Below are positions 14,328 through 64,000 of a stretch of 64,000 nt of DNA, piece after piece. The notes under the pieces were generated by a model. That model had not been told where the DNA came from, did no database searches, and saw only the letters and a list, made by a program, of their open reading frames with translations. Numbering within the stretch: the first letter of the stretch is position 1; the number at the start of each line of letters is the position of its first letter. Where the stretch lies: the NCBI GenBank assembly GCA_048940925.1, contig JBHLOC010000016.1, positions 1-64,000 on the forward strand. Reading direction: 5' to 3'. The DNA comes from Promethearchaeota archaeon (GTDB lineage Archaea; Asgardarchaeota; Lokiarchaeia; Sigyniarchaeales; SOKP01). The translations under genes were made by a program, and so were the position numbers.

Positions 14328-17300
14328 TTGACTTATATTAAGAAAATTTCCATGACGGGATTCAAATCATTTGGAGACCGTACTGTAACAATCAAACTTT
14401 CAAGTGGTTTTACCTGTATTGTAGGTCCAAATGGAGCAGGAAAATCTAATATTATAGACGCACTGTGTTTTGCTTTAGGTAGATTGAGTAAAAAAACAAT
14501 GAGAGCAAAAAGTTTAGAAGACCTAATATTTGCAGGTTCAAGAGGAAAAAACCCTTCTCAGAGAGCAACGGTAACAATGTATTTTGATAATTCAGAGAAT
14601 GTTTTCCCCGGAGGTACAGAATCTTTTGAAATCACTCGTACTATAAAAAGAGGAGGTGGTGGCGGTTATAAGATGAATGGAAAAAAAACTACTCGGCAAC
14701 AGATTCTCAATGCTTTAGCTGCTGCAAATGTTGATCCCGATGGTAGTAATCAATTCGTTTTACAGGGAAAAATTGTAGAATTGACACACATGAATGCAGA
14801 AGAACGAAGACAATTTATTGAAGAACTCATTGGACTTCAAAAATATGATGAAATGAAAGATGTTACGTTAAAAGAATTGGAAAAAGCAGAAAGAGATTTA
14901 GGACAATTCGAAGCAATTTTTAAAGAAGTATCTTCTCAACTCAAAAAAGTTGAAAAAGAAAAGAATGATGCGTTAGCATGGAAAGAACTGGATGATCACG
15001 TGAACTTTTTGAATTCACAGTTAATAGCTTTAAAAATTTCAAAATTAAGAGAAGAAGAAGATGAATTAGAAAAAAAAATAGAAAATTCTCTAAAAATTAT
15101 CGAAGAATTGGAAGAAAAAATTGTTAGACAAGAAGATTTGCTAAAACAAGAATCACTTGTGATGGATAATATTCAACTTACAATAAATGAAAAAGAAAAG
15201 GAGAGAGAGGAAATAACTGAGAATATAACTCAATTAAAGACTAAAATTTCTTCAAATCAAACTACATTAAATCTAGCTAATAAATCAATTGAAAAATTGA
15301 CACAAGAAATAAAAAATTTAGAAAATTTACAAATGGAGCTTGAAGAAGGACAATCTATTGATTCCTTAATAGAACAAGCTACAAATGAGATTTCTGAATG
15401 TGAAAATTTTATTGAAGGATCTAAAAAGGAAATAGAAAAAAGACAGCAGATACAAGCTGAACTAGAGACAAAAATAAAGACAAAAGAAGAAGAAAAATCA
15501 CAATTTCAATCTGAAATCTCAAGTATTAAACAAAATATATCATCTAGTAAAGCACAAACAAAAGTTTTGAGAGAAAATATTAAAAAGAATGAAGATAAGA
15601 AAGTTAAATTAGAAAATGAATTGAATAAATTAAAAAGGGATGCAGAAAGTATAGATGATGCAATAGAAGATGCAAGAAAGGCAGAAAAGGAAATTCGAAA
15701 ACAAATTGATAATTTAAAAGTTAAAGCCTCTGAAGAAAATCAAAATAGAAAAGATTTGGAAAATAAAATAAATTCACTTCAACAAGAAAAAAATAATTTG
15801 AACAATAATCTTGGAAATATAAGGTCATCTTTATCGTCTTTAAATACTGAGATTAATATGAATAACAATAGAATTCAAGATTTAAATAAGAAAAAAATTT
15901 CAATCGAGAAGAAAATCCAGGAATTAAGCAAGGGTAAAGATACTGAACAAGTTGTTAAAGAACTGTTAAAAGAAAATGAAGATGTTAATAAAGTATTAAT
16001 AGGATTAAGAGCAAAATTAAAGGAAGAAAACTCAATTTACAAAAAAAATGAGCAGAATCTAGAACTTTTGAAAATGAAAAAATATTCTCTTGAGTCTGAA
16101 ATTAATGATAATAAAGGAAAAATTGACAATATTAATACTGAACTAAAAATATACTCAAAAGAATTGACTAAATTGGAAAGAGAAAAGAATAATTTAGACT
16201 TACATGTGAATGAACTAAAAAATAATCTTTCAAATACTGAAAAAGATATAGAAAAATTCAGTTTAAGAAAAGAAAACATCCAAAGACGTTTGGAAGAACT
16301 TAAGAAAGAAAGGGAGACCCTCTTAAAAAAAATTGAATCTTCAGAAGAAGAATATGAGAAGAATACGGAAGATATAACTGGAATCTTACAAATTTTAAAT
16401 ATGCTTACTCAAAATATCAATATATCAGTTGAATCTATAAAAAGTAATATACAACAGGCAAATGCTGAAGCAATAGAATTATCTGCTGAAGATTTCAAAA
16501 AATTTGTATTAGATATTGTAGATATAATGAAAACAATCGAAACACTAGGTAGTGATACAGAACAAACTGCCGAGATGTCAGAAATGCTCAGCTCGATATT
16601 AGAAACACTAAGTTTATTTACAGAAAATGCTGATTCTACAATTAATCAACTCATTGAAAGGGTAAAAGAATCTGCTGATGTAGAAGTTCAAACATCAACT
16701 ACTACTTTTGATAGTTTTGTGCAAGATCTAATGGAAATTCTTGAAAATGTATATTTATCTTTAAGAAAGTTAACTATGTCCAAGAGTCAAGAACTATATA
16801 AACAACTAGAAGATATTTCTGAAAATATTAGTGCTCAATCTGATGATTTTAATGATGTTGAGAAAAAATTTACAGGAAAAAATGTACAAAATCAACATAG
16901 TACAGAGAAGCTTTCAATTTCTATTCGTAGACTCGAAGAAATTACTAAAAGAATTCAAGAATTAAATACAAGAAGTTTGAAATCAGAAGAAGAAAACAAA
17001 GATAGAAACACGATTATAAACGAAAGAAAAAAAGAAATTGAAAGTTTAGATATTGAAATTGAAAAGTTAATAGAGCTTAAAGATAAATATTGGGATAATA
17101 TATCTCAAATCCAAGATGATATCGAGAAAAAACAAACAGAATTAGAGACTTTAAGAATAAAGTTACAAGAATTACATGGAATTCAGAACTTATTCGAAAA
17201 TATTACTGAAATTGATGAAAATATACAAAAATTAAATAGTGCAATAGATGATAAAAAGAATTTGATTATTAATACTGAAAATAGTATTAATAAAATTCAA

Positions 17301-18782
17301 GAAGAGCAAAATTCTATTCAAAATGAAATTGATACTTATACTATACAAAAAGAAAAATTTTGGGAGATAACAGAAAAAATCCAGAAGCAAATTGAAGATA
17401 AAAATAAGGAATTAGAAGAAACTATGGATCGTCTTAGGGCACTGGAAAATGTAATGAGAATTATCAATTCAATTGAGGATATTAAAAAGGAAAATATTGA
17501 TGCCAATAATAGTATTGAACAGTGTTTGAAAGATGTTGAAGTTTTCAACTCTCAAGTTGATGAAATTCAAAAAAATGTTGATCAAAGACAAGAAATAATA
17601 GATTCTCTTAGAAATGAAAAAAGTAAAGAATTGGAATTACAAAAAAAAGCCCAAAAGCAATTGAACAAGCTGAATAAAGATTTACAGAAACACCAAGGAA
17701 AATTAAATGAATTAAATAAAAATAAAGAAAGAGAACAGAAAATTATAGAATTAGGTGTAGAGATACAAGACACTGAAAAACAAGTAGAATCCACTTTAAA
17801 CGAATTAGAGAATTTTAAAGAAGAATTAAATAATGAAAATGAGAAAAAGGACAATAAGCAAAATGAAATTGATAATTATGTCCAAGAAAAAGATCAATCA
17901 TGGAAAAAACAAAAACAATTCCAAAAAATAATTACAGATTTGAAATCAGATCTGTCGATGGAAAATTCAAAAAAAAATAACTTTGAATCTAAGAAAATTA
18001 TATGCGCAGATCAAATAGAGACTTTGTTTCAACGATCCAAGGAATTTGGCTCATTACCAAGGGTAACCGAAGATTTATCAGAACCAGGGTTACAATCTGA
18101 AATAGTGGAAGCAACAAAGAAGAAGAAAGCTCTCGAACCTGTGAATTTAAAGGCAATTGAACAGTACGATGCAGTTAAAGAAAGATTTGATGAAATTGAC
18201 ATGCGTAGACAGACAATACAGAGAGAAAGAAAATCGATTTTAGATGCAATAGATAAAATAGAACTTGAAAAAACAAGAACATTTATGAAAGCATATCATG
18301 AGATTAACCGAGAATTTAGTATGATTTTTCAAAAACTCAGCCCTGGTGGTTCGGCCAAAATGATTTTAGATCGTCCTGATAAACCTTTTGAGGGTGGAAT
18401 TAGTATTGAAGCTAGACCTCGAGGTAAAAAAATATCTAGCCTTGAAATTCTAAGTGGAGGCGAAAAAACACTCGTAGCACTCTCGTTTATCTTTGCTGTT
18501 CAGGAATTTTATCCAGCACCATTTTATGTTATGGATGAGATTGATGCAGCCCTTGATGGTCCTAATGTGCATAGAGTAAGCACAGTAATTCAAGAATTTT
18601 CAAAACAAGCACAATTCCTTGTAATAAGTCATAGGGAAGAAAATATTGTGAATGCAGACCGCATATATGGAGTTTCAATGCAGCAAAGTGGAATTACTGA
18701 TATTTTTAGCGTAGATTTAGAGGAGGAGGCTAAACGACTCTTAGAGCTTGAAGATATTGAGCCTACAATTACAGAAAATTAA
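14328..18782 (+). CDS. smc: chromosome segregation protein SMC, elongated, without a recognisable canonical hinge
   Basis: GFKSF, Walker A GPNGAGKSN, Q-loop VLQG, PVNLKAIEQY, signature LSGGEK, Walker B MDEIDAALD, ISHR; long coiled coils; TTG start after GGAG. Confidence 0.95.
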   Translation: MTYIKKISMTGFKSFGDRTVTIKLSSGFTCIVGPNGAGKSNIIDALCFALGRLSKKTMRAKSLEDLIFAGSRGKNPSQRATVTMYFDNSENVFPGGTESFEITRTIKRGGGGGYKMNGKKTTRQQILNALAAANVDPDGSNQFVLQGKIVELTHMNAEERRQFIEELIGLQKYDEMKDVTLKELEKAERDLGQFEAIFKEVSSQLKKVEKEKNDALAWKELDDHVNFLNSQLIALKISKLREEEDELEKKIENSLKIIEELEEKIVRQEDLLKQESLVMDNIQLTINEKEKEREEITENITQLKTKISSNQTTLNLANKSIEKLTQEIKNLENLQMELEEGQSIDSLIEQATNEISECENFIEGSKKEIEKRQQIQAELETKIKTKEEEKSQFQSEISSIKQNISSSKAQTKVLRENIKKNEDKKVKLENELNKLKRDAESIDDAIEDARKAEKEIRKQIDNLKVKASEENQNRKDLENKINSLQQEKNNLNNNLGNIRSSLSSLNTEINMNNNRIQDLNKKKISIEKKIQELSKGKDTEQVVKELLKENEDVNKVLIGLRAKLKEENSIYKKNEQNLELLKMKKYSLESEINDNKGKIDNINTELKIYSKELTKLEREKNNLDLHVNELKNNLSNTEKDIEKFSLRKENIQRRLEELKKERETLLKKIESSEEEYEKNTEDITGILQILNMLTQNINISVESIKSNIQQANAEAIELSAEDFKKFVLDIVDIMKTIETLGSDTEQTAEMSEMLSSILETLSLFTENADSTINQLIERVKESADVEVQTSTTTFDSFVQDLMEILENVYLSLRKLTMSKSQELYKQLEDISENISAQSDDFNDVEKKFTGKNVQNQHSTEKLSISIRRLEEITKRIQELNTRSLKSEEENKDRNTIINERKKEIESLDIEIEKLIELKDKYWDNISQIQDDIEKKQTELETLRIKLQELHGIQNLFENITEIDENIQKLNSAIDDKKNLIINTENSINKIQEEQNSIQNEIDTYTIQKEKFWEITEKIQKQIEDKNKELEETMDRLRALENVMRIINSIEDIKKENIDANNSIEQCLKDVEVFNSQVDEIQKNVDQRQEIIDSLRNEKSKELELQKKAQKQLNKLNKDLQKHQGKLNELNKNKEREQKIIELGVEIQDTEKQVESTLNELENFKEELNNENEKKDNKQNEIDNYVQEKDQSWKKQKQFQKIITDLKSDLSMENSKKNNFESKKIICADQIETLFQRSKEFGSLPRVTEDLSEPGLQSEIVEATKKKKALEPVNLKAIEQYDAVKERFDEIDMRRQTIQRERKSILDAIDKIELEKTRTFMKAYHEINREFSMIFQKLSPGGSAKMILDRPDKPFEGGISIEARPRGKKISSLEILSGGEKTLVALSFIFAVQEFYPAPFYVMDEIDAALDGPNVHRVSTVIQEFSKQAQFLVISHREENIVNADRIYGVSMQQSGITDIFSVDLEEEAKRLLELEDIEPTITEN

Positions 18783-18806
18783 ATATTGTTGAAATGGTGA
18801 TTAATA

Positions 18807-19805
18807 ATATCAGAAGACCAAAAGCCAGAAAAAAAGTATAATTTTAGCCAGTGGATAGTAAAAGATTTAAGAGAATTTGCCTCCAAGAATAATATAAAAA
18901 TTCCATCAAAATCTAAAAAGAAAGATATCATAGAATTGTTAGAAAAAATTGTATCACATCCAGAATTTGTTGATCGATCTGAAGAACCAGAAGAATTGGA
19001 GGAAGAGCTAATAGCAGATTTTGATGACGAGGATGATCTTGCTTTATTAAGGAAAGAAAAAATGGATCTAAAATTTTGGCAGCAACCCCCATTTTCCAGT
19101 TTATTGGATACAGAATTAGCTAAAGAATCAGATATAGCTTTTTATGATTTAGCTAGTCTAGTTGATGAATTTTTCGATAATATGCTTCACGAAGATTTAA
19201 TTAACTATAAGATCTCCGGAATTGCATTAAAGACTTCAGCATCATTACATCATTATAAAATTACTAGTATAATAAAAGAAGAAGAACAAATTCAAAAAAA
19301 AGAAGAATTAGAACGATATCGACAAAGACATAGCAGATCAATACCAAAAGCTCTACCCCAACCAATACAACCTAAAATGCAAATTGCTACAAAGGAGGAA
19401 TTGTTTGATGCTATGAGATCTGCTATAATAGAAGTAATGCAAAGTAAAGAAAAATTAAAAAGAAGGAGGATGCGAAAAGAAGAATTAAAACAACAAAGAA
19501 TACAATTGAGATCAAAAGCTCAATTACCAAAAGAACTTTTAAAACACATTAGTGGAAAAGATCAGACAATTGAAGAGTTACATGAATCATGGTATAACAG
19601 GATAAAAGCTACAATTAATTTAGATGATAAAGAAACGAGTTTTTTTGATTTGACAAAAATTATTAAAGATGAAGAAGAAACTAGCATAGGTAGGAAATTT
19701 ATTTTAGTAAGGATGTTTTTAGCTTTAATGTTTTTATCCACAGGAGGTAAATTGAATTTATCTCAAGATGAAGATTTTAAGAATATATCTATAGATTTAA
19801 AATAA
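18807..19805 (+). CDS. scpA: kleisin ScpA with N-terminal HeH/SAP-like module; probable ATA start upstream of the track's TTG
   Basis: N-kleisin DLASLVDEFF...INYKISGIALKTSASL and C-terminal FLALMFL..GKLNLSQDEDFKNI; lies between smc and scpB. Frame is open from 18801, with GGTGA at 18796-18800. Confidence 0.85.
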   Translation: MSEDQKPEKKYNFSQWIVKDLREFASKNNIKIPSKSKKKDIIELLEKIVSHPEFVDRSEEPEELEEELIADFDDEDDLALLRKEKMDLKFWQQPPFSSLLDTELAKESDIAFYDLASLVDEFFDNMLHEDLINYKISGIALKTSASLHHYKITSIIKEEEQIQKKEELERYRQRHSRSIPKALPQPIQPKMQIATKEELFDAMRSAIIEVMQSKEKLKRRRMRKEELKQQRIQLRSKAQLPKELLKHISGKDQTIEELHESWYNRIKATINLDDKETSFFDLTKIIKDEEETSIGRKFILVRMFLALMFLSTGGKLNLSQDEDFKNISIDLK

Positions 19806-19831
19806 AATAATTATAGACAAATTAAAATCTC

Positions 19832-20737
19832 ATGAATAATTTAAACAAAAATTTAAAGGAAAATCCAGAGGAAGAACCTCTCGAAAATATTGAAGAAATC
19901 TCTGAAGTAGTTTCAAATGAAGGGAATGAAGCAGAAGAAATTAAAGAGAGTGATCAACAGGTTAAAGAAGTTTCTATTGATGAAGTCAGTAAAGATGAAT
20001 TCGGTATCGATGAGAAAGGAGATACTATAGAAGAAAAATATGGGGATATTGAAGATGAGTATATAGAACGTGAAAATTTAGAAAATCTTGATGAGAGTGT
20101 TGAACTTAAACCTTTAGAGAGTGAACCGCTAGAAGAAGTATCATTAGAAGTACAACTCAGAGAATTTCATAGGAACTTAATTGAAGCTTCATTATATGCT
20201 GCAGGCAGGCCTCTGAGCATCGAAGAAATTTCGAATAAGTTAGAAATATCTAAAAAAGAAGTAGAAGAATTAATTAATTTGGTTGCTTTTGATTATATGG
20301 AACGATCGACAGCATTAGTTATAGCTCAAATTGGGGATAGATACCAAATGCAGATTAAACCAGAATATACAGAAAAAGTTTCTAAATTTGCTAAAGGAGG
20401 AGCTATTGCAGAGCGATATTTAAGAACCTTGACTATTATAGCTTTAAAACAACCAATTTTAAAATCAACCGTGGTAAAATTAAGAGGATCTGGAGCATAT
20501 GAACATGTAAAATATCTAATTGATAATGGATTTATAGATGCTGTCAAAAAAGGAAGAACTCATGAGTTAACTACAACAGATAAATATTCTGATATGTTCG
20601 GATTGCCGAAAGATAAAATTGAATTGAAACGTGTTATGATTAAACAATTAGGGGTAGAAGAAGTTACAAGTAGCGAACAACCAGAAGAAATTGAAGATGA
20701 ACAGAACATAGATCAAGAAAAATTAGACAAAGAATAA
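19832..20737 (+). CDS. scpB: kite subunit ScpB with long acidic N-terminal tail
   Basis: IEASLYAAGRPLS, LRTLTIIALKQPI, LRGSGAYEHVKYL, TTDKYSDMFGL. Confidence 0.92.
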   Translation: MNNLNKNLKENPEEEPLENIEEISEVVSNEGNEAEEIKESDQQVKEVSIDEVSKDEFGIDEKGDTIEEKYGDIEDEYIERENLENLDESVELKPLESEPLEEVSLEVQLREFHRNLIEASLYAAGRPLSIEEISNKLEISKKEVEELINLVAFDYMERSTALVIAQIGDRYQMQIKPEYTEKVSKFAKGGAIAERYLRTLTIIALKQPILKSTVVKLRGSGAYEHVKYLIDNGFIDAVKKGRTHELTTTDKYSDMFGLPKDKIELKRVMIKQLGVEEVTSSEQPEEIEDEQNIDQEKLDKE

Positions 20738-38813: not shown

Positions 38814-41800
38814 GTGTCTAAAATTTCATCTAAAGAAGAAGGCAAGATAAAACAAGGTACCATCGCAGAATATATGCGAAAAAGAACACAGCTTGTAGGT
38901 TTTGAGTTTGGATATTGGAAACATGTTCAATATTGTGCAGAATTTATAGATAACGCGCTTGATGCTATTGAAAGTTTTCAATGGAAGGAATTAAAAAGAA
39001 CTGATTCAAAAGTAAAATTCTCCTTAGATCAAGAATTATTTTTAGAGAAATTCTCTATAGTAGAAGAAGCAAAAGAAGAAAAAAAATCTCAACACCTAGA
39101 TGAGGAAGCAAAACATACCTTAATGCAAGAATTTGGTATTGAAACTACTGAAGTGCAACGGTCTACAGTCCAAGAATTAGAAGTAGAAGAAGAAGAATCT
39201 GGAGAAATTACAGATAAAGAAGAATTGGAAGTAGAAGAGGAGGTAAAAAGAATTATTGACGATATGCAGGAACTTATTAAACCTGTTGAATATATTATTG
39301 ATGTTGAACCAATTTGTATAGTTCGTATAAGAGAATTTGAAGCGCCCTCGTTTTTAACATCTGAAATAAGTCAAAAAAATGTTATGAGTTTTACTTTCGA
39401 AATTTTTGATAATGGAACTGGAATGTCAAAGATAGATTTAAGAAAATTTGGAAGATACTTAGCTTCATCAAAATCTATAGAACTTAAACAAACACGCGGA
39501 AGTCAAGGATTTGGTGCTCCTAGTGCATTTAGTGACGCTCAAAACACTACTGGCAGGCCTATTATCACTGTTTCAAAGACTGTTGATAATGTTTATGCAA
39601 CAGTAACCGAATTTTTCACAACTTCCAAAAATGAGAAAAAGTATTTAATTCACCCCTCAGAGATAGACAGTCCATTTCTTCATGGAACATACATCAAGTT
39701 AAATTATCTTAATGTAAAATACGTCAGGGGTTATGTTGAAAAATATATTGAAGAAACCGCATTTATGAACCCTCATATAACTATTATTTATATTGATCCG
39801 GAAGGAAAGGAAAAGATTTATCGAAGATTAGCTTCTTCTTTTCCCAAAGAACCCAAATACGCCAAACCACATCCTTCGTCTGTTAACATTGGAGATTTGC
39901 AGGATTTAATAACGAAGTCAGATAACAAAAATATTACCGCTTTCTTAAAAGAAAATTTTGTTAGAATTAGTTCTAGAACAGCCAAAGAAATTGTAGAATT
40001 AGCAGAAAAATTTCTTCAAGATAAATTAAACCTCTTGATTCTTGAAAAGGGTTTTGTAACTAAAGTTCAAAAAAAAATTGATAAAATATATTTCCTAAAA
40101 TTTGAAAAACGAGTATTTGGACGATCAAATAAACCAAGAGATAAATTAATTATATATGAAATTGAATCTTTAGATTTGAAAGAAGATTTTTGGAAATTTA
40201 TGGATGAATATAATAAAATTGATAAGAAACAGGAAAAGATTAATAAAGAGATAAGAAAACATAATAATCGAATTGAAAAATCTGAAACCCAAAGAGAAAT
40301 CAAAAACATTGAAAAAGAAGTAAAAAAGTTAATGAAAAATATAGATAATATTAAAAAAGAAAAAGAAAAATTAAAACTTCAAGTGAGTAATCTTTTTGAA
40401 ACTAAAAAAGATGGTTTAATTGAATTAAAAAAAATTAAAAATCGAAGTGATTTCGAAGATTTAGTTAATGAAGTTCAAATTTCTAAAGTCAAACCAATTG
40501 ATTTAACCAAAGAACAATTTAATTCTCTTTTTCTTGCTTTTAAATCTATAAAATACCTAGCACCACCTACAGACACAGCTATTCCTGTAGGTGATTCTAT
40601 CTTAGAGAACACACTAATTAAGGAAATTGGACTAAAAATCTCAGAAAATCTGGATGATTTTGATTTACCACTAGATAACATAAAACAAACAACTGAAATC
40701 TTATTAAAAGAAAAACACAAACTATTAAAAAATGAAGATCCTAAGATAAGGGAGAACATGATAAATAATATATCTATTGATTCTGATGAAATCATTAATA
40801 TAAGCTCTGAAATATTAGGAAGTATCGAAATTGTAGAGGGAAAAGAAGATGATGAACAATACACACAATATATTGATGATATTCTTACTTTTTCTGAATT
40901 AGAACCTATTGAAAGTTATACGAATTTATTTGAATATTTTATTGAGAATTATACTAGAGATGATGATTTTGTCGCTGCTGAAACAAGAGCTCCGACAAGT
41001 GGAAAAGGTTTAGCTTATGTTGTTGAAGCTGTATTGGCTTATTCTAGAAATATTGAAATACCAAAACGTTCTAGAGATGTTTTATCAAGATTTGTAAACA
41101 GAACTCCTAAACTTAGAGATAGCGCAGATTGTGCTATAACTAAAGCAGTTCAATCAGTAAATTGGAAAAATTATAATTTAGATACATATGATAATGGACT
41201 CCCAAAGGGACCAATTAAATTATTGGTTAATGTTTCTGGTCCTTTTGTTCATTTAATGTTTAAATCTCAATCAAAAAACGCTTTAGCTGATGACGAAGAT
41301 TTAATTAAAGAAATTAAATATTGTCTTGAAGCAATTGGGAGAAGATTACGTGTCTATCTTAATAGAAAAGCGAGTCTTCGTAAAACTGAGAAAAGAGCTA
41401 GTTTAATTGACAAATATATACCTATTTTCGTTGAAAGCATTTATAATATTGCAACACAGGGTAATAGCATATATAAAGCGAAGATTAATGTAAAAGAATT
41501 AGAAGATTTAATGAGAGGGGCAATTGGTAAAAAACCTGCACCTAAAGCTTTAAAAGAGCCAGAATTACCTTCTAAAACCGAAACCATAGAGAAAGAACTA
41601 AAAAAAGAAGAAATCAAGCCAGAAGAACCTAAAGAAACTGAAGTAATTAGTGCAGTAAAACCAATAAAAGAAAAAATACATATTGAAAAACCCCAAATTT
41701 CCAAGAAAACTCTGTTGAATTGGAATGTAAAAGAACTTAGAGATTATTGTAATGAAAGCAATATTTATGTTCCATCTAAAGCTAGAAAGGCTGAAATCAT

Positions 41801-42188
41801 AGAAAAAATATTAAAATCATTTGCTGAAGAAAGAGTAATAGAAAAACCAGAAATAATACCTGTAGAAAAACAAATAGTCTCCAAGAAGATTGCTGTAATG
41901 AAACCCTCAAAAAAACCTGCAATTGCTCAAGAAATAATAAAGCCAAAACCTAAACCAAAACTAGCCAAAACACAACCAACTCAAACAACATTACCAGTCA
42001 TAACAACTGATAAAATACTAGAAGCATTATCAGATGAGTGGCAAACCATTAAACATCTTATATTTAAATTAAAAATTAAGGATATGATGGATGCTAGATA
42101 TCTTCAACTCAAACTCAAAGAATTAGAACGTAAAGGAGAAGTTTTAGTAGAAATTAAGATGGGTAGAAAGCATTGGAAATTAAAATAG
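38814..42188 (+). CDS. top6B: DNA topoisomerase VI subunit B, greatly enlarged (1124 aa)
   Basis: GHKL EFIDNALDA, DNGTGM, TRGSQGFG, HGT; KPHP; RFVNRTP; FKSQSK; adjacent to top6A. Confidence 0.92.
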   Translation: MSKISSKEEGKIKQGTIAEYMRKRTQLVGFEFGYWKHVQYCAEFIDNALDAIESFQWKELKRTDSKVKFSLDQELFLEKFSIVEEAKEEKKSQHLDEEAKHTLMQEFGIETTEVQRSTVQELEVEEEESGEITDKEELEVEEEVKRIIDDMQELIKPVEYIIDVEPICIVRIREFEAPSFLTSEISQKNVMSFTFEIFDNGTGMSKIDLRKFGRYLASSKSIELKQTRGSQGFGAPSAFSDAQNTTGRPIITVSKTVDNVYATVTEFFTTSKNEKKYLIHPSEIDSPFLHGTYIKLNYLNVKYVRGYVEKYIEETAFMNPHITIIYIDPEGKEKIYRRLASSFPKEPKYAKPHPSSVNIGDLQDLITKSDNKNITAFLKENFVRISSRTAKEIVELAEKFLQDKLNLLILEKGFVTKVQKKIDKIYFLKFEKRVFGRSNKPRDKLIIYEIESLDLKEDFWKFMDEYNKIDKKQEKINKEIRKHNNRIEKSETQREIKNIEKEVKKLMKNIDNIKKEKEKLKLQVSNLFETKKDGLIELKKIKNRSDFEDLVNEVQISKVKPIDLTKEQFNSLFLAFKSIKYLAPPTDTAIPVGDSILENTLIKEIGLKISENLDDFDLPLDNIKQTTEILLKEKHKLLKNEDPKIRENMINNISIDSDEIINISSEILGSIEIVEGKEDDEQYTQYIDDILTFSELEPIESYTNLFEYFIENYTRDDDFVAAETRAPTSGKGLAYVVEAVLAYSRNIEIPKRSRDVLSRFVNRTPKLRDSADCAITKAVQSVNWKNYNLDTYDNGLPKGPIKLLVNVSGPFVHLMFKSQSKNALADDEDLIKEIKYCLEAIGRRLRVYLNRKASLRKTEKRASLIDKYIPIFVESIYNIATQGNSIYKAKINVKELEDLMRGAIGKKPAPKALKEPELPSKTETIEKELKKEEIKPEEPKETEVISAVKPIKEKIHIEKPQISKKTLLNWNVKELRDYCNESNIYVPSKARKAEIIEKILKSFAEERVIEKPEIIPVEKQIVSKKIAVMKPSKKPAIAQEIIKPKPKPKLAKTQPTQTTLPVITTDKILEALSDEWQTIKHLIFKLKIKDMMDARYLQLKLKELERKGEVLVEIKMGRKHWKLK

Positions 42189-42203
42189 AAAGGGTGAATA
42201 ATT

Positions 42204-43391
42204 ATGAGTGAAAAAGCAAAAAGTAAAGAATGGGATTTAAAGGCTGCTAAAAGTTTGTTTAATGAATATTTAGAGAAAGGAAGTGAAGATAAACCTATTG
42301 AACTCCCTCCTGATACCGTTAAAATAGATGATCTTAAAAGAAAAGAAGCTCTTGAAAGATTATATTTATTGATTGATGATGTGTTAAAAAAAATATATGA
42401 TACAGGTCGTCCATCTATACAACTTCCTTCAAGAACAAGTTCAAATATTATTTGGGATGAAGAAAATGATTTATTACTTCTTGGTAAGCAAATAATGGAA
42501 AAACAGTTTCACTCACTTACAAGTGTGGCAGACATTACACGGTTAATAAAAGTGTTAGAAAAGGTTAATGAGTTATTGATAAAAGATTTACATGCTACCA
42601 AAAGAGAAATTTTTTATTCTGATGTTAAATTATTCCAAGATCAAAAAAACAGTGATAAGAGCATTGAAGATGTTGCTACTATGCTTTATACTACTAGAAA
42701 CGCTACTCACATTGTAGCTTCAGCCAAGGGTTCCTGTATTGGCAGACTTAGAATTAGAGATAAAAATGATATTATCGATTTAGAAGGATTGGGCAGTGGA
42801 GGGTGGACAATAAGCCCAATGCTCGATAATATTGAAATAATTGAATCAGATGCGGAGTTCATAATTGTTGTAGAGAAAGATGCAGCTATGATAAGGTTAT
42901 CAGAAGCTCGCTTTTGGCGAAAATATCCATGTATTATATTGACGGCAAAGGGTGCCGCTGATATTGCAACCAGAATGTTTTTAAGAAAATTAAGTAAAGA
43001 TTTAAATCTCCCAGTTTTTAGTTTAGTTGATAGTGATCCATATGGTCATTATATTCATTCAGTTTATCTAAGAGGATCAAAACGATTAAGTTATGAATCT
43101 CCATTTCTAGCTACGCCAGATATTAAATTATTAGGAGTTTTAACCAGAGATTTAGATAAATATAATGTACCAAATGATTGTAGACTTTCAATGAACAAAA
43201 TGGATATTAAAAGGACAAAAGAACTTCTTAAGGAAGATTTTGTCATAAAAAATAAACAGTGGGAACAAGATCTTAAATTAGCACTTAATTTAAAGATTAA
43301 AGCAGAAATTCAAGCGTTATCGTCACATGGATTTGAATTCTTAACTGATGAATATTTACCAGAAAAATTAACCACGGGTGATTGGATATGA
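42204..43391 (+). CDS. top6A: DNA topoisomerase VI subunit A (Spo11 homolog)
   Basis: TKREIFY (catalytic Tyr), VEKDA, DSDPYG, KAEIQAL; SD GGTGA 6 nt upstream. Confidence 0.96.
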   Translation: MSEKAKSKEWDLKAAKSLFNEYLEKGSEDKPIELPPDTVKIDDLKRKEALERLYLLIDDVLKKIYDTGRPSIQLPSRTSSNIIWDEENDLLLLGKQIMEKQFHSLTSVADITRLIKVLEKVNELLIKDLHATKREIFYSDVKLFQDQKNSDKSIEDVATMLYTTRNATHIVASAKGSCIGRLRIRDKNDIIDLEGLGSGGWTISPMLDNIEIIESDAEFIIVVEKDAAMIRLSEARFWRKYPCIILTAKGAADIATRMFLRKLSKDLNLPVFSLVDSDPYGHYIHSVYLRGSKRLSYESPFLATPDIKLLGVLTRDLDKYNVPNDCRLSMNKMDIKRTKELLKEDFVIKNKQWEQDLKLALNLKIKAEIQALSSHGFEFLTDEYLPEKLTTGDWI

Positions 43392-62940: not shown

Positions 62941-64000
62941 ATTTTAGGTGGAAAAGGTAGAAGTTTAATTTTATTCGCAGTTTTTTTTCTTACAGCTGGA
63001 TTTGCTTTTGAAAATTACTTTCTAGTATACTTTGCTGTATTATTACTTTTTAGTACTATTATCAGCTTACCGGTTTTCCACTATAAAATGAACGTTGAAG
63101 AATTATTAGTCCATCGAGAATTAGAAAAAGAGAAAGTATTTAAAGATGATTTTGTCCATGTAAAAGTAATCATTGAAAATATTGGGAATGCCAGTTTTGA
63201 TTTTCTTGAAATCAGAGATAGTTTTAACCCCCAGCTGTTTAGATTAATTTTAGGTGAAAATTTTATTTCAACTCGAATCGGTCCCAAAGAAATAGTTAAA
63301 TTTTCATATGTTCTTGAACCAAGAGTTAGGGGAGAATATGCGCTTGGACCATTGTCTGTAATAGTTAAAGATAGATTAGGTTTTAATTCATTAGAACGAA
63401 TAGTTCCTGATAGTGTAACTGATATATTAATATATCCCCCATATGAAGATATTAAAAGAATTGAAATATTAGGTTCCAAAAGATCTTTACAATTAAACTA
63501 TGGTTTACAGAGATCAAAGCAAAAGGGTCTTGGATCAGAATTTTATGGCATGAGAAAATATGTTTTTGGGGACCAATTTAGATTAATAGATTGGAAAGCA
63601 AGTGCTCGAGCTCAAACCTTAATAGTAAAAGAATTTGAGAGTGAAAGAGATGTAACTGTTATGATTTTAGTAGATTCTTCAGAAACTATGGCGGGAGGGG
63701 CAATTGAAAATACTAAATTTGAATATGCAATTAGATCATGCATGCTTTTAACTAAAGTAGCTTTAACACGAAGAGATAACGTTGGAGTGTTTACGTTTTC
63801 TGATAAGAAGAATTTCAATTTCTTAAAACCAAATAGTGGCGAGGAACATTTTTATCAAGTGTTAGATTTTGTTGCTCGAGTAAAACCAGAAGGAAAATGT
63901 AGAATTGTAGAAGCCCTTGATTATTTCACACGAAGATTTCAGAAACGAAGTTTAGTTTTCATTATATCTGATTTAGAAGCAAATCCCAAAGAAATCAGTC
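62941..64000 (+). CDS. DUF58 (VWA-like) protein, truncated at window end; probable ATT start; absent from the ORF track
   Basis: Manual translation: ILGGKGRSLILFAVFF...GSEFYGMRKYVFGDQFRLIDWKASAR...KEFESERDVTVMILVDSSETM. GGTGA at 62930-62934; in-frame TGA at 62932. Confidence 0.88.
   Translation, partial: MLGGKGRSLILFAVFFLTAGFAFENYFLVYFAVLLLFSTIISLPVFHYKMNVEELLVHRELEKEKVFKDDFVHVKVIIENIGNASFDFLEIRDSFNPQLFRLILGENFISTRIGPKEIVKFSYVLEPRVRGEYALGPLSVIVKDRLGFNSLERIVPDSVTDILIYPPYEDIKRIEILGSKRSLQLNYGLQRSKQKGLGSEFYGMRKYVFGDQFRLIDWKASARAQTLIVKEFESERDVTVMILVDSSETMAGGAIENTKFEYAIRSCMLLTKVALTRRDNVGVFTFSDKKNFNFLKPNSGEEHFYQVLDFVARVKPEGKCRIVEALDYFTRRFQKRSLVFIISDLEANPKEIS

What the first reader, a model, noticed from the sequence alone, without database searches (positions are those of the whole stretch)
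18807..18950. Hidden HeH/SAP-like module on ScpA that is shared with Topo VI B
Seen: the scpA frame is open 45 codons upstream of the track's TTG and encodes WIVKDLREFASKNNIKIPSKSKKKDIIELLEK (W at 18852). The C-terminal extension of Top6B encodes WNVKELRDYCNESNIYVPSKARKAEIIEKILK (W at 41721). They share 14/28 identities without gaps, and both sit on flexible charged linkers. Known: the xVxELRxxxxxxxI.....K..II..L pattern is the HeH fold (SAP, LEM, Rho-N), used for nucleic-acid or chromatin tethering, and it is not a standard part of ScpA or Top6B. Inference: this lineage has added the same tether to its condensin kleisin and its decatenase, which could co-target both to DNA or a common partner.
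Basis: partly seen in the sequence, partly recalled or inferred. Interest (0 to 1): 0.85.

Follow-up and report, generated by a model that had tools for sequence, protein, structure and literature searches.

The report
SAP/HeH DNA-tether module on ScpA, Top6B
A small, known type of DNA-binding module (SAP/HeH) is fused to the SMC kleisin ScpA and to topoisomerase VI-B in this Lokiarchaeial genome, but it also sits on an actin-regulating gelsolin and a zinc-finger protein and is swapped for basic tails or a zinc finger in sister lineages, so it looks like a general tether and not a dedicated condensin-topoisomerase link.

Summary
The scpA frame is open for 45 codons upstream of the TTG at 18936 and encodes a ~40-residue helix-extended loop-helix module. 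A copy sits in the C-terminal extension of Top6B: 14/28 identical without gaps, BLASTP E=1e-9. The module belongs to ScpA. It is conserved across 19 same-genus orthologs (dN/dS about 0.1). The gene most likely starts at ATA 18807, six bases after a GGTGA ribosome-binding site, and a close relative has ATG at exactly that position. ATT/ATA/ATC starts behind GGTGA-N6 recur genome-wide here.

The fold and profile place the module in the SAP/HeH/Rho_N superfamily; the closest solved sequence is the Ku70 SAP domain.

The co-targeting reading is only partly supported. This genome has four carriers: ScpA, Top6B, a gelsolin-domain protein and a CxC..CxH protein. A sister genus adds a GIFT-domain protein. 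ScpA's copy is closer to the gelsolin copy than to Top6B's. One sister genus has the module on ScpA but not on Top6B. Another has a zinc-finger-like motif on ScpA, and a sister family has lysine-rich tails on both.

Best reading: an interchangeable, linker-borne DNA tether, restricted to one Lokiarchaeial family. DNA binding is inferred, not shown. This scan found the same thing earlier on other genomes.

The parts
14328..18782 (+). smc (1484 aa), ending TAA 18780-18782, directly upstream of scpA
   Evidence: ORF. Pfam SMC_N 126.6 bits spanning residues 3-1457. No SMC_hinge hit.
18796..18800 (+). GGTGA Shine-Dalgarno-like site of scpA, 6 nt before the ATA start
   Evidence: Sequence. GGTG lies at -11 from the aligned start codon in 17 of 20 loci. 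A genome-wide peak of ATH codons occurs at exactly GGTGA+6 nt: 20 ATH, 8 canonical, 4 other, against 0-1 for scrambled motifs.
18807..19805 (+). scpA as it most likely is: 332 codons starting at ATA 18807. The gene-caller start TTG 18936 cuts off the module.
   Evidence: ATA aligns to the ATG start of a close relative, whose product begins MSEDPKPEKEYNFNQW and whose gene has GGTG-N7-ATG upstream. 16 of 19 genus orthologs have ATT/ATA/ATC here and no canonical start before the module. L020 and L022 have a stop one codon upstream.
18843..18956 (+). HeH/SAP-like module of ScpA (W at 18852; helix 1, extended loop IKIPSKSKK, helix 2)
   Evidence: Pfam Rho_N 23.2 bits, HeH 19.7, Ish1 18.3, all just under their cut-offs. 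AF2: helix-loop-helix, pLDDT 80.6 and about 83 in full-length ScpA. dN/dS 0.08-0.10 over 171 ortholog pairs; both other frames are closed in 19/19 loci.
18963..19085 (+). acidic low-complexity linker between the module and the kleisin N-terminal domain
   Evidence: Sequence EFVDRSEEPEELEEELIADFDDEDD. pLDDT below 50 for model residues 61-86.
19832..20737 (+). scpB
   Evidence: Pfam SMC_ScpB 116.7 bits, cut-off 27.4.
38814..42188 (+). top6B, 1124 aa, with a long C-terminal extension
   Evidence: Pfam Topo-VIb_trans 100.4 bits, cut-off 24. The extension is conserved over its full length in the genus.
41700..41837 (+). HeH/SAP-like module of Top6B (residues 963-1008, W at 41721) between K/P/E-rich linkers
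   Evidence: Rho_N 25.5 bits against a cut-off of 24.9 on the isolated C-terminal part and 26.8 bits in the genome scan. Found in 10 of the 11 same-genus Top6B loci fetched.
41997..42185 (+). conserved C-terminal ~63 residues of Top6B, winged-helix-like by eye, present whether or not the HeH module is
   Evidence: Conserved into families f2 and f3 and genera g12 and g13. No Pfam hit. Fold not tested.
42204..43391 (+). top6A
   Evidence: Pfam TOP6A-Spo11_Toprim 195.7 bits and TP6A_N 60.9 bits.

Best explanation
The 45 'hidden' codons are the true 5' end of scpA. Translation most likely starts at ATA 18807, six bases behind a GGTGA ribosome-binding site. This adds a ~40-residue SAP/HeH-type helix-extended loop-helix module to the kleisin, joined by a ~40-residue acidic, disordered linker. 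A paralogous module sits between K/P-rich linkers in the C-terminal extension of Top6B.

The module is a mobile domain of one Lokiarchaeial family. It has been shuffled onto at least five unrelated proteins, as one or two copies and always at a terminus on a flexible linker.

Its most likely job is that of the Ku70 SAP domain: a weak, sequence-unspecific, possibly AT-preferring DNA tether. Such a tether would raise the local DNA affinity of its host, so SMC-ScpA and Topo VI would load or stay on the chromosome more efficiently.

Shown here:
- the coding status and conservation of the module;
- the start position, by comparison with relatives;
- the fold class;
- the distribution among host proteins and lineages.

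Inferred: DNA binding and its effect on the host enzymes. My confidence in the structural and annotation part is about 0.9. My confidence in the DNA-tether function is about 0.55-0.6.
For: Coding status and start:
- The module is conserved in 19 genus orthologs with dN/dS about 0.1.
- ATA 18807 aligns to the ATG of a close relative, with the same SD upstream.
- 16 of 19 orthologs have ATH at this position and no canonical start upstream of the module.
- GGTGA-N6-ATH is a genome-wide class: 20 ATH against 8 canonical starts at that spacing, and 0-1 for scrambled motifs.
- An independent contig shows no indel.

Fold and family:
- AF2 gives helix-loop-helix at pLDDT 80.6.
- The two-copy gelsolin relative P0010 passes the Pfam cut-offs of Ish1, HeH, SAP and Rho_N.
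- The best hits of the module profile among 1.84 billion representatives are multi-copy SAP/HeH/Rho_N proteins.
- The best solved sequences are the Ku70 SAP domain and the Rho N-terminus.
- The structural neighbour lists are rich in SAP, LEM and Rho-N domains.

DNA tether:
- Basic columns are conserved: K/R17 in 100%, K/R32 in 97%, K33 in 100%.
- Mean net charge of the core is +2.2; ScpA's copy is +4 with pI 9.8.
- At the same two positions, sister lineages carry other nucleic-acid-type appendages. Family f2 has Lys/Ser/Thr-rich tails on the ScpA N-terminus and in the Top6B extension. Genus g13 has a CxxC..HxC zinc-finger-like motif on ScpA and a K/P-rich linker on Top6B.
- Ku70 offers a precedent for a linker-borne SAP that raises DNA affinity and loading (PMC11936186).
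Against:
- Two carriers are not obvious DNA proteins: a gelsolin-domain protein and a GIFT/ABC_transp_aux-domain protein.
- The copy on the CxC..CxH protein is net acidic: -1, pI 5.0.
- SAP-like and LEM folds can also bind proteins. MANF/CDNF SAP-like domains bound to BiP, and the emerin LEM domain bound to BAF, are among the structural neighbours.
- The window's ScpA copy itself scores just below every Pfam cut-off.
- Structural match statistics for so small a domain are not significant on their own: Foldseek E is at least 0.7, and VIA Z of 5-7 is within the chance range.
- Initiation at ATA rests on comparative evidence, not on protein data.
Confidence: 0.58

Rival explanations
1. The module is a protein-protein adaptor. 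All carriers (ScpA, Top6B, gelsolin protein, CxC..CxH protein, GIFT protein) dock through it onto one common partner or scaffold, for example a BAF-like chromatin protein, an actin-fold ATPase or a membrane-proximal scaffold, in the way LEM domains bind BAF and MANF SAP-like domains bind BiP.
For: The carriers are functionally mixed and include an actin regulator. The closest Foldseek neighbours are CDNF/MANF SAP-like domains bound to the BiP nucleotide-binding domain, and LEM-BAF is also in the list. The strongly conserved W-T-V-K-E-L face could be a protein interface.
Against: No candidate partner was identified. Replacement of the module by lysine-rich tails and a zinc-finger-like motif in sister lineages fits a generic nucleic-acid contact better than a specific protein interface. 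By sequence the profile is closest to DNA-binding SAP domains (Ku70, Tho1, Siz1) and to the Rho N-terminus.
Confidence: 0.2
2. One reading: the lineage put the same tag on condensin and on its decatenase in order to co-recruit the two machines, that is, a functional SMC-Topo VI coupling.
For: Both enzymes carry the module in four genera of the family: g1, g14, g15 and g16. The smc-scpAB and top6BA operons lie only 19-25 kb apart in this window, in nine other genus genomes and in one genome of family f3.
Against: Genus g12 has the module on ScpA but not on Top6B in three genomes that are 98-100% complete. ScpA's copy is more similar to the gelsolin copy (51%) than to the Top6B copy (44%). At least three other host proteins carry the module. 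In two complete genus genomes the two operons are 0.3-0.6 Mb apart.
Confidence: 0.1
3. The module binds RNA or single-stranded nucleic acid rather than duplex DNA, as expected from its Rho_N-like score and from the RNA-linked SAP proteins (Tho1, SF3B2, hnRNP-U).
For: Rho_N is the best-scoring Pfam family for the ScpA, Top6B and CxC..CxH copies. Several structural neighbours are RNA-processing SAP domains.
Against: In Rho, RNA is bound mainly by the adjacent OB fold and not by the N-terminal helices (established knowledge). ScpA and Top6B act on duplex DNA.
Confidence: 0.08
4. The 45 codons are not translated. ScpA starts at TTG 18936 or later, and the open frame is an untranslated or decaying remnant.
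For: There is no ATG, GTG or TTG in the 45 codons, and several database gene calls of orthologs start inside or after the module.
Against: dN/dS is about 0.1 and both other frames are closed in 19/19 orthologs. Relatives with an ATG at the aligned position encode the same N-terminus. The first canonical start in orthologs wanders from codon 19 to codon 128 and would delete conserved kleisin sequence. There is a genome-wide class of SD-N6-ATH starts.
Confidence: 0.03

Closest known systems
Ku70 C-terminal SAP domain (PDB 1jjr; Pfam SAP PF02037)
   Same: A ~40-residue helix-extended loop-helix at a protein terminus on a flexible linker. It is the best solved-sequence match to the module profile, with a shared TV..LKE.C...K.S..KK.E pattern. 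It is described as raising DNA affinity and loading of a DNA-handling enzyme (PMC11936186).
   Different: The host is a eukaryotic end-joining factor. Here the hosts are an archaeal kleisin, Top6B, a gelsolin protein and others. The archaeal copies have a conserved Trp before helix 1 and an I-x-[IV]-P-S-K loop. The E-value of the 1jjr match is inflated because that record holds the segment twice; per stretch it is 0.07-0.13.
Rho_N (PF07498), the N-terminal helical subdomain of bacterial Rho
   Same: The best-scoring Pfam family for the window's copies. The Top6B copy passes the cut-off when scanned alone: 25.5 bits against 24.9. T. maritima Rho gives E=0.01 against the profile.
   Different: There is no adjacent OB fold and no helicase. 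The module is used as a free-standing terminal appendage, and the ScpA copy falls just below the cut-off (23.2 bits).
HeH/LEM-like domains of inner nuclear membrane proteins (Heh1/Heh2/Src1, LAP2; PF12949) and Ish1 repeats (PF10281)
   Same: Same fold class. The gelsolin-linked copies in relatives pass the HeH and Ish1 cut-offs. Tandem duplication of the module occurs as in Ish1 and LAP2.
   Different: No membrane anchor and no nucleus. True LEM domains bind BAF, which was not looked for here.
Canonical prokaryotic ScpA of SMC-ScpAB (Bacillus, Pyrococcus)
   Same: The gene lies between smc and scpB. The kleisin body is conserved, and JGI names an ortholog as Rec8/ScpA/Scc1 kleisin.
   Different: Canonical ScpA begins directly with the SMC-neck-binding helical domain. 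Here a DNA-tether-type appendage and an acidic linker precede it: HeH in five genera, a zinc-finger-like motif in g13 and a basic tail in family f2.
C-terminal extensions of type II topoisomerases (the CTD noted for Asgard and eukaryotic TopoVIB, PMC9665070; the chromatin-tether region of the eukaryotic Topo II-alpha CTD, from general knowledge)
   Same: A long, disordered, basic C-terminal extension beyond the transducer that ends in small folded elements. PMC9665070 lists a CTD as present in Asgard TopoVIB.
   Different: That paper does not mention a SAP/HeH module (0 occurrences of HeH, 1 of SAP). The HeH insert is restricted to four genera of one family, while the terminal winged-helix-like element is wider.
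AUU-initiated bacterial genes (E. coli infC, pcnB); ATT/ATC/ATA are listed as starts in NCBI table 11
   Same: A near-cognate AUH start behind a strong SD.
   Different: Here it is not a single regulatory exception. It is a class of at least 20-26 genes at a fixed GGTGA-N6 spacing in one archaeal genome, conserved at scpA across a genus.

Membership tests
SAP/HeH/Rho_N superfamily (Pfam SAP PF02037, HeH PF12949, Rho_N PF07498, Ish1 PF10281) | About 35-45 residues folding as helix, extended loop, helix | tested here: met
   AF2 of the module with 60 aligned copies: helices at 13-22 and 33-45, a 10-residue loop, pLDDT 80.6. The same elements appear in full-length ScpA at pLDDT about 83.
SAP/HeH/Rho_N superfamily (Pfam SAP PF02037, HeH PF12949, Rho_N PF07498, Ish1 PF10281) | Profile score above the curated family cut-off | tested here: met
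   Top6B copy: Rho_N 25.5 bits (cut-off 24.9) on the isolated C-terminal part, 26.8 bits in the genome scan. The CxC..CxH copy scores 36.6-39.5 bits. Relative P0010 passes Ish1 (45.9), HeH (33.8), SAP (31.5) and Rho_N (27.4). The ScpA copy alone is just below the cut-off: Rho_N 23.2, HeH 19.7. Top hits of the module profile are strong SAP/HeH/Rho_N proteins.
SAP/HeH/Rho_N superfamily (Pfam SAP PF02037, HeH PF12949, Rho_N PF07498, Ish1 PF10281) | Conserved hydrophobic core (L in helix 1, I/L before the loop, I-I/L in helix 2) and a basic S/G-K-x-K-K turn into helix 2 | tested here: met
   In 60 copies: L16 98%, I25 93%, S29 95%, K33 100%, K/R32 97%, K/R17 100%.
SAP/HeH/Rho_N superfamily (Pfam SAP PF02037, HeH PF12949, Rho_N PF07498, Ish1 PF10281) | Structural superposition on solved SAP, LEM or Rho-N domains | tested here: inconclusive
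   Neighbours include Tho1 SAP 1h1j (TM 0.77, rmsd 1.9), CDNF/MANF, E1B-AP5 SAP, PIAS1 SAP, Rho 1a62 and emerin LEM. However, Foldseek E is at least 0.7 and VIA Z is 5-7.3, within the chance range for a small helical model.
SAP/HeH/Rho_N superfamily (Pfam SAP PF02037, HeH PF12949, Rho_N PF07498, Ish1 PF10281) | Binds DNA or another nucleic acid | not testable with these tools
   Only indirect evidence: conserved basic positions and positional replacement by basic tails or a zinc-finger-like motif in sister lineages.
ScpA kleisin of SMC-ScpAB | Encoded next to smc and scpB | tested here: met
   smc 14328-18782 (SMC_N 126.6 bits), scpA, then scpB 19832-20737 (SMC_ScpB 116.7 bits).
ScpA kleisin of SMC-ScpAB | Kleisin N-terminal helical domain and C-terminal winged helix recognised by a family profile | tested here: inconclusive
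   Only a weak Rad21_Rec8 C-terminal hit: 13.4 bits, E=0.047, cut-off 22.7. AF2 shows a helical body ending in helices plus a beta hairpin. JGI names ortholog P0107 as Rec8/ScpA/Scc1 kleisin.
Topoisomerase VI subunit B | Transducer domain and GHKL ATPase; encoded next to top6A | tested here: met
   Topo-VIb_trans 100.4 bits (cut-off 24). HATPase_c_3 22.1 bits, just under its cut-off of 25. top6A follows at 42204-43391 (Toprim 195.7 bits, TP6A_N 60.9 bits).
Gelsolin/cofilin domain proteins of Asgard archaea (1DGelX-type architecture); applies to the third carrier, G000:C4:11530-12453 | N-terminal gelsolin domain recognisable against solved Asgard gelsolins | tested here: met
   The family profile A3 hits Thor ProGel 7c2f (E=1e-7), 2DGel3 7c2h (5e-7) and Loki 2DGel 7whg (6e-7). 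Pfam Gelsolin is sub-threshold: 14.9-18.4 bits.

The most novel reading that the evidence does not exclude
The family-specific W-type HeH module is a common address label. It brings SMC-ScpA, Topo VI and an actin-severing gelsolin-domain protein to the same site on the nucleoid, or to one shared partner. That would physically link the lokiactin cytoskeleton to chromosome compaction and decatenation, as a primitive actin-assisted chromosome segregation apparatus in an Asgard archaeon.
Probability: 0.08. Interest if true: 0.85.

Novelty: new variant of a known kind. Interest (0 to 1): 0.45.

Why it matters
**Annotation.** Standard gene callers truncate ScpA in this genus because the gene starts at ATA, ATT or ATC. 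Comparative studies of Asgard SMC complexes would therefore miss an entire domain.

**Biology.** SAP/HeH modules are best known as chromatin tethers of eukaryotic proteins such as Ku70, PIAS, SAF-A and inner nuclear membrane proteins. Here one Lokiarchaeial family uses the same module as a plug-in appendage on a kleisin and a type IIB topoisomerase. Sister lineages use lysine-rich tails or a zinc-finger-like motif at the same positions. This suggests that Asgard SMC-ScpA and Topo VI generally need an auxiliary DNA contact that is not part of the textbook enzymes, and that idea can be tested with recombinant proteins.

**The gelsolin copy.** The copy on a gelsolin-domain protein is the odd one out. 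It gives a concrete handle on whether actin regulators touch the nucleoid in these cells.

**Limits.** The module is lineage-restricted: 29/29 genomes of one family, against 3/121 elsewhere in the phylum at E<=1e-5. It therefore says little about the ancestor of eukaryotes.

Tried and rejected
**Frameshift or homopolymer error.** I first considered that the ATG at 18794, in another frame, joins the scpA frame through the 7-A run at 18829-18835. I rejected this. The short upstream frame is not conserved in relatives. 19 orthologs share the layout without a canonical start. An independent contig shows no indel.

**Read-through from smc.** The smc stop is in the same frame, with two stops in between. 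No evidence supports read-through, and L020 and L022 place a further stop one codon before the ATH.

**RadA as a carrier.** An earlier scan note reports this for another genome. This genome's RadA (C42) has a CxxC-containing N-terminal extension instead, and no module was found with the 60-copy profile. The 420-437 aa carriers of genus g14 that I suspected to be RadA are GIFT/ABC_transp_aux-domain proteins.

**Complex prediction of lokiactin with the module**, meant to probe the protein-adaptor rival.

**RNA evidence.** No RNA holder was listed among public runs. Only DNA contigs could be laid.

**Foldseek against the PDB.** No match at E<=0.001.

**Literature.** The searches were Asgard + SAP domain; Asgard + kleisin/ScpA; topoisomerase VI + Asgard; Lokiarchaea + start codon; and SAP/LEM/Rho/archaea. 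In the held library they found no description of a SAP/HeH module on archaeal ScpA or Top6B, nor of AUH initiation in Lokiarchaeia.

**M. mazei Top6B paper (PMC5922973).** I searched it for CTD or C-terminal-domain DNA binding and found nothing usable.
Full report
**1. Observation**

The stop-to-stop frame containing scpA opens at 18801, right after TGA 18798-18800. It holds no ATG, GTG or TTG until the TTG at 18936 that ORF finders use. These 45 codons read LIISEDQKPEKKYNFSQWIVKDLREFASKNNIKIPSKSKKKDIIELLEK, with W at 18852.

Top6B (38814-42188, 1124 aa) carries WNVKELRDYCNESNIYVPSKARKAEIIEKILK at residue 970, W at 41721. BLASTP gives E=1e-9.

An HMM made from the two segments alone, run over every six-frame ORF of the 4.8 Mb, 29.6% GC genome, finds the two seeds and exactly two further copies. 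There is a clean gap to the noise: E 3e-10 and 4e-4, then 0.04. A 60-copy profile gives the same four.

**2. The module belongs to ScpA, and the start is ATA 18807**

All 24 same-genus genomes have the ScpA ortholog. In 20 fetched loci the match runs into the N-terminal module within an open frame of 334-340 codons.

Selection on the module is clear. Across 19 loci (171 pairs) it has pS 0.66, pN 0.11-0.13 and median dN/dS 0.08-0.10. The other two frames are closed in 19/19 loci.

Several observations point to an ATH start:
- A conserved GGTG(A) sits just upstream, at -11 from the aligned codon in 17/20 loci.
- Six bases after it comes a conserved ATT, ATA or ATC followed by Ser.
- 16 of 19 genus loci have no canonical start between the upstream stop and the module.
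- The first canonical codon wanders from codon 19 to codon 128.
- In L020 and L022 a TAA lies one codon before the ATH.
- Database relatives that do have an ATG begin MSE... at exactly this aligned position. P0039 begins MSEDPKPEKEYNFNQWTVKDLREF, and its DNA reads GGTG-tatacaa-ATG-tca-gaa-gac, against the window's GGTGA-ttaata-ATA-tca-gaa-gac.

The pattern is genome-wide. I took ORF 5' ends with a stop no more than 8 codons upstream, at least 150 open codons, and no other canonical start up to 25 codons downstream. The position GGTGA+6 nt then holds ATH 20 times, a canonical start 8 times and anything else 4 times. Neighbouring spacings and scrambled motifs give 0-3. A second case lies in the window at 62941.

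An independent metagenome contig covers 18700-19039 without an indel. Its only difference is synonymous in this frame. The refutation clause 'ScpA starts at 18936 or later and orthologs lack the module' is therefore not met.

**3. What the module is**

The window's ScpA copy scores just under the Pfam cut-offs: Rho_N 23.2 against 24.9, HeH 19.7, Ish1 18.3. The Top6B copy passes Rho_N when scanned alone (25.5 bits), and scores 26.8 bits in the genome scan.

Other sequence evidence:
- A two-copy relative on the gelsolin protein (P0010) passes Ish1, HeH, SAP and Rho_N.
- The module profile searched against 1.84 billion representatives gives 4545 hits at E<=1e-3. The best are multi-copy proteins that Pfam calls SAP/HeH/Rho_N at 90-180 bits.
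- Against solved sequences the best match is the Ku70 SAP domain, followed by the Rho N-terminus, Tho1 SAP and Siz1 SAP. The Ku70 E-value is inflated because the segment is duplicated in that record.

Structural evidence:
- AF2 predicts helix 13-22, a 10-residue extended loop and helix 33-45, at pLDDT 80.6.
- In full-length ScpA the module is confident (about 83), and an acidic stretch below pLDDT 50 follows it.
- Structural neighbour lists are full of SAP, LEM, Rho-N and MANF/CDNF SAP-like domains. Their statistics are not significant for so small a fold.
- The conserved positions are the hydrophobic core and a basic S-K-x-[KR]-K turn into helix 2, with K33 invariant in 60 copies.

**4. Who carries it**

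This genome has four carriers:
- ScpA, at the N-terminus.
- Top6B, in the C-terminal extension.
- A 308-aa protein on contig C4 with the module at its very C-terminus.
- A 307-aa protein on C77 with an N-terminal copy and a CxC..CxH motif.

The C4 protein is a genuine Asgard gelsolin-domain protein. Its profile hits Thor ProGel 7c2f at E=1e-7 and Loki 2DGel 7whg at 6e-7. Its architecture resembles the '1DGelX' class of Akil et al. 2020 (PMC7444086).

In public data the best 120 of 356 hits fall into the same four families. All that carry a source name come from Promethearchaeota/Loki-type MAGs. One or two tandem copies occur in each family. Genus g14 adds a fifth host, a GIFT/ABC_transp_aux-domain protein with a C-terminal copy. 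This genome's RadA has no copy.

Over 31 core positions, ScpA copies are 44% identical to Top6B copies. They are 43-51% identical to gelsolin copies and 32-33% identical to the CxC..CxH type. There is no special ScpA-Top6B relationship.

**5. Phyletic pattern**

At E<=1e-5 the module is found in 29/29 genomes of the window's family (six genera). It is found in only 3 of 121 other Asgard genomes from 24 families.

Within the family:
- Genera g1, g14, g15 and g16 have it on both ScpA and Top6B.
- g12 has it on ScpA, but its Top6B extension is only a K/P-rich linker plus the conserved terminal element.
- In g13, ScpA starts with MPKCPYCGKIFQRLSQHKC, a zinc-finger-like motif, and Top6B has only a basic linker. 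The CxC..CxH protein alone keeps a copy.

In the sister family f2, ScpA begins with 60-90 residues of Lys/Ser/Thr-rich tail, and the Top6B extension holds a Lys/Ser-rich stretch.

Three different small appendages therefore occupy the same site on ScpA. Each is of a kind usually associated with nucleic-acid contact, and each is followed by an acidic linker. This is the strongest, though indirect, argument that the site's job is a generic DNA contact.

**6. Mechanism**

This part is inferred. The ScpA N-terminal domain binds the SMC neck next to the heads (established for SMC-ScpAB). A SAP-type module on a ~40-residue leash there could reach DNA clamped on or passing the heads.

The C-terminal end of the Top6B transducer abuts Top6A and the DNA gate (established for Topo VI). 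A module on a long K/P-rich leash there could hold the enzyme on DNA between strand-passage cycles.

The closest functional precedent is Ku70. Its linker-borne SAP raises DNA affinity and loading (PMC11936186). The AT-rich genome (29.6% GC) would suit the AT preference reported for SAP domains, which is general knowledge and was not tested here.

**7. Rivals**

- A protein adaptor remains possible, at about 0.2. The reasons are the gelsolin and GIFT hosts, and the fact that MANF/CDNF and LEM relatives bind proteins.
- The specific SMC-Topo VI coupling is weakened by g12, by the extra hosts and by the identity matrix.
- My attempt to model the module with lokiactin was not run by the tool.

**8. 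Novelty**

In the held literature I found no description of a SAP/HeH module on archaeal ScpA or Top6B. PMC9665070 records only that Asgard TopoVIB has a CTD.

The domain class is known. The architectures, and their interchange with basic tails and a zinc-finger-like motif, are new variants.

The same finding, and the AUH-start phenomenon, were already reported by this scan on other genomes of the group. My tests on this genome agree with those notes, except that RadA is not a carrier here.

Noticed in passing
genome-wide; in the window 18807 (ATA) and 62941 (ATT): ATT/ATA/ATC codons exactly 6 nt after GGTGA behave as start codons for a class of genes. At ORF 5' ends without any other canonical start there are 20 ATH, 8 canonical and 4 other codons at that spacing, against 0-1 with scrambled motifs. 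The 62941 case restores a TM-like N-terminus (ILGGKGRSLILFAVFF...) that the ATG at 63088 would cut off.
   Followed up: partly
window 14328-18782 (smc); middle region 16128-17027: The 1484-aa SMC matches SMC_N across both ends but gives no SMC_hinge (PF06470) hit, not even at E<=10 in residues 601-900. These look all-helical and acidic, so the hinge may be replaced or highly divergent.
   Followed up: partly
window 41997-42185 (last ~63 residues of Top6B): A conserved terminal element, winged-helix-like by eye, is kept in every Top6B extension examined (own genus, g12, g13, families f2 and f3) whether or not the HeH module is present. It has no Pfam hit. Free-standing 81-94 aa ORFs similar to it exist in relatives.
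   Followed up: partly
G000:C4:11530-12453 (= L001:3531-4457): A gelsolin-domain protein (N-terminal gelsolin domain, ~150-residue middle region, C-terminal HeH module). Relatives have two tandem HeH copies (375-378 aa). It may correspond to the Loki version of the '1DGelX' architecture, whose domain X was left unexplained in PMC7444086.
   Followed up: partly
L052 and L053 (genus g13 scpA); G000:C42 RadA (L039:241-1500, minus strand): A short CxxC...H motif (MPKCPYCGKIFQRLSQHKC on g13 ScpA; YYCPECKRMHTKGKVYKDH on this genome's RadA) occupies N-terminal positions where other lineages carry the HeH module. This suggests a second interchangeable appendage.
   Followed up: no
window 14328-20737 and 38814-43391: The smc-scpA-scpB and top6B-top6A operons lie about 18 kb apart here. 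They lie 19-25 kb apart on the same contig in nine other genus genomes, and about 18 kb apart in one genome of family f3. They are 0.3-0.6 Mb apart in two complete genus genomes.
   Followed up: no
L037:334-1593 (genus g14): A protein with an N-terminal IFT52-GIFT/ABC_transp_aux-like domain, a coiled coil and a C-terminal HeH module is a fifth host family. It is not found as a carrier in this genome.
   Followed up: partly
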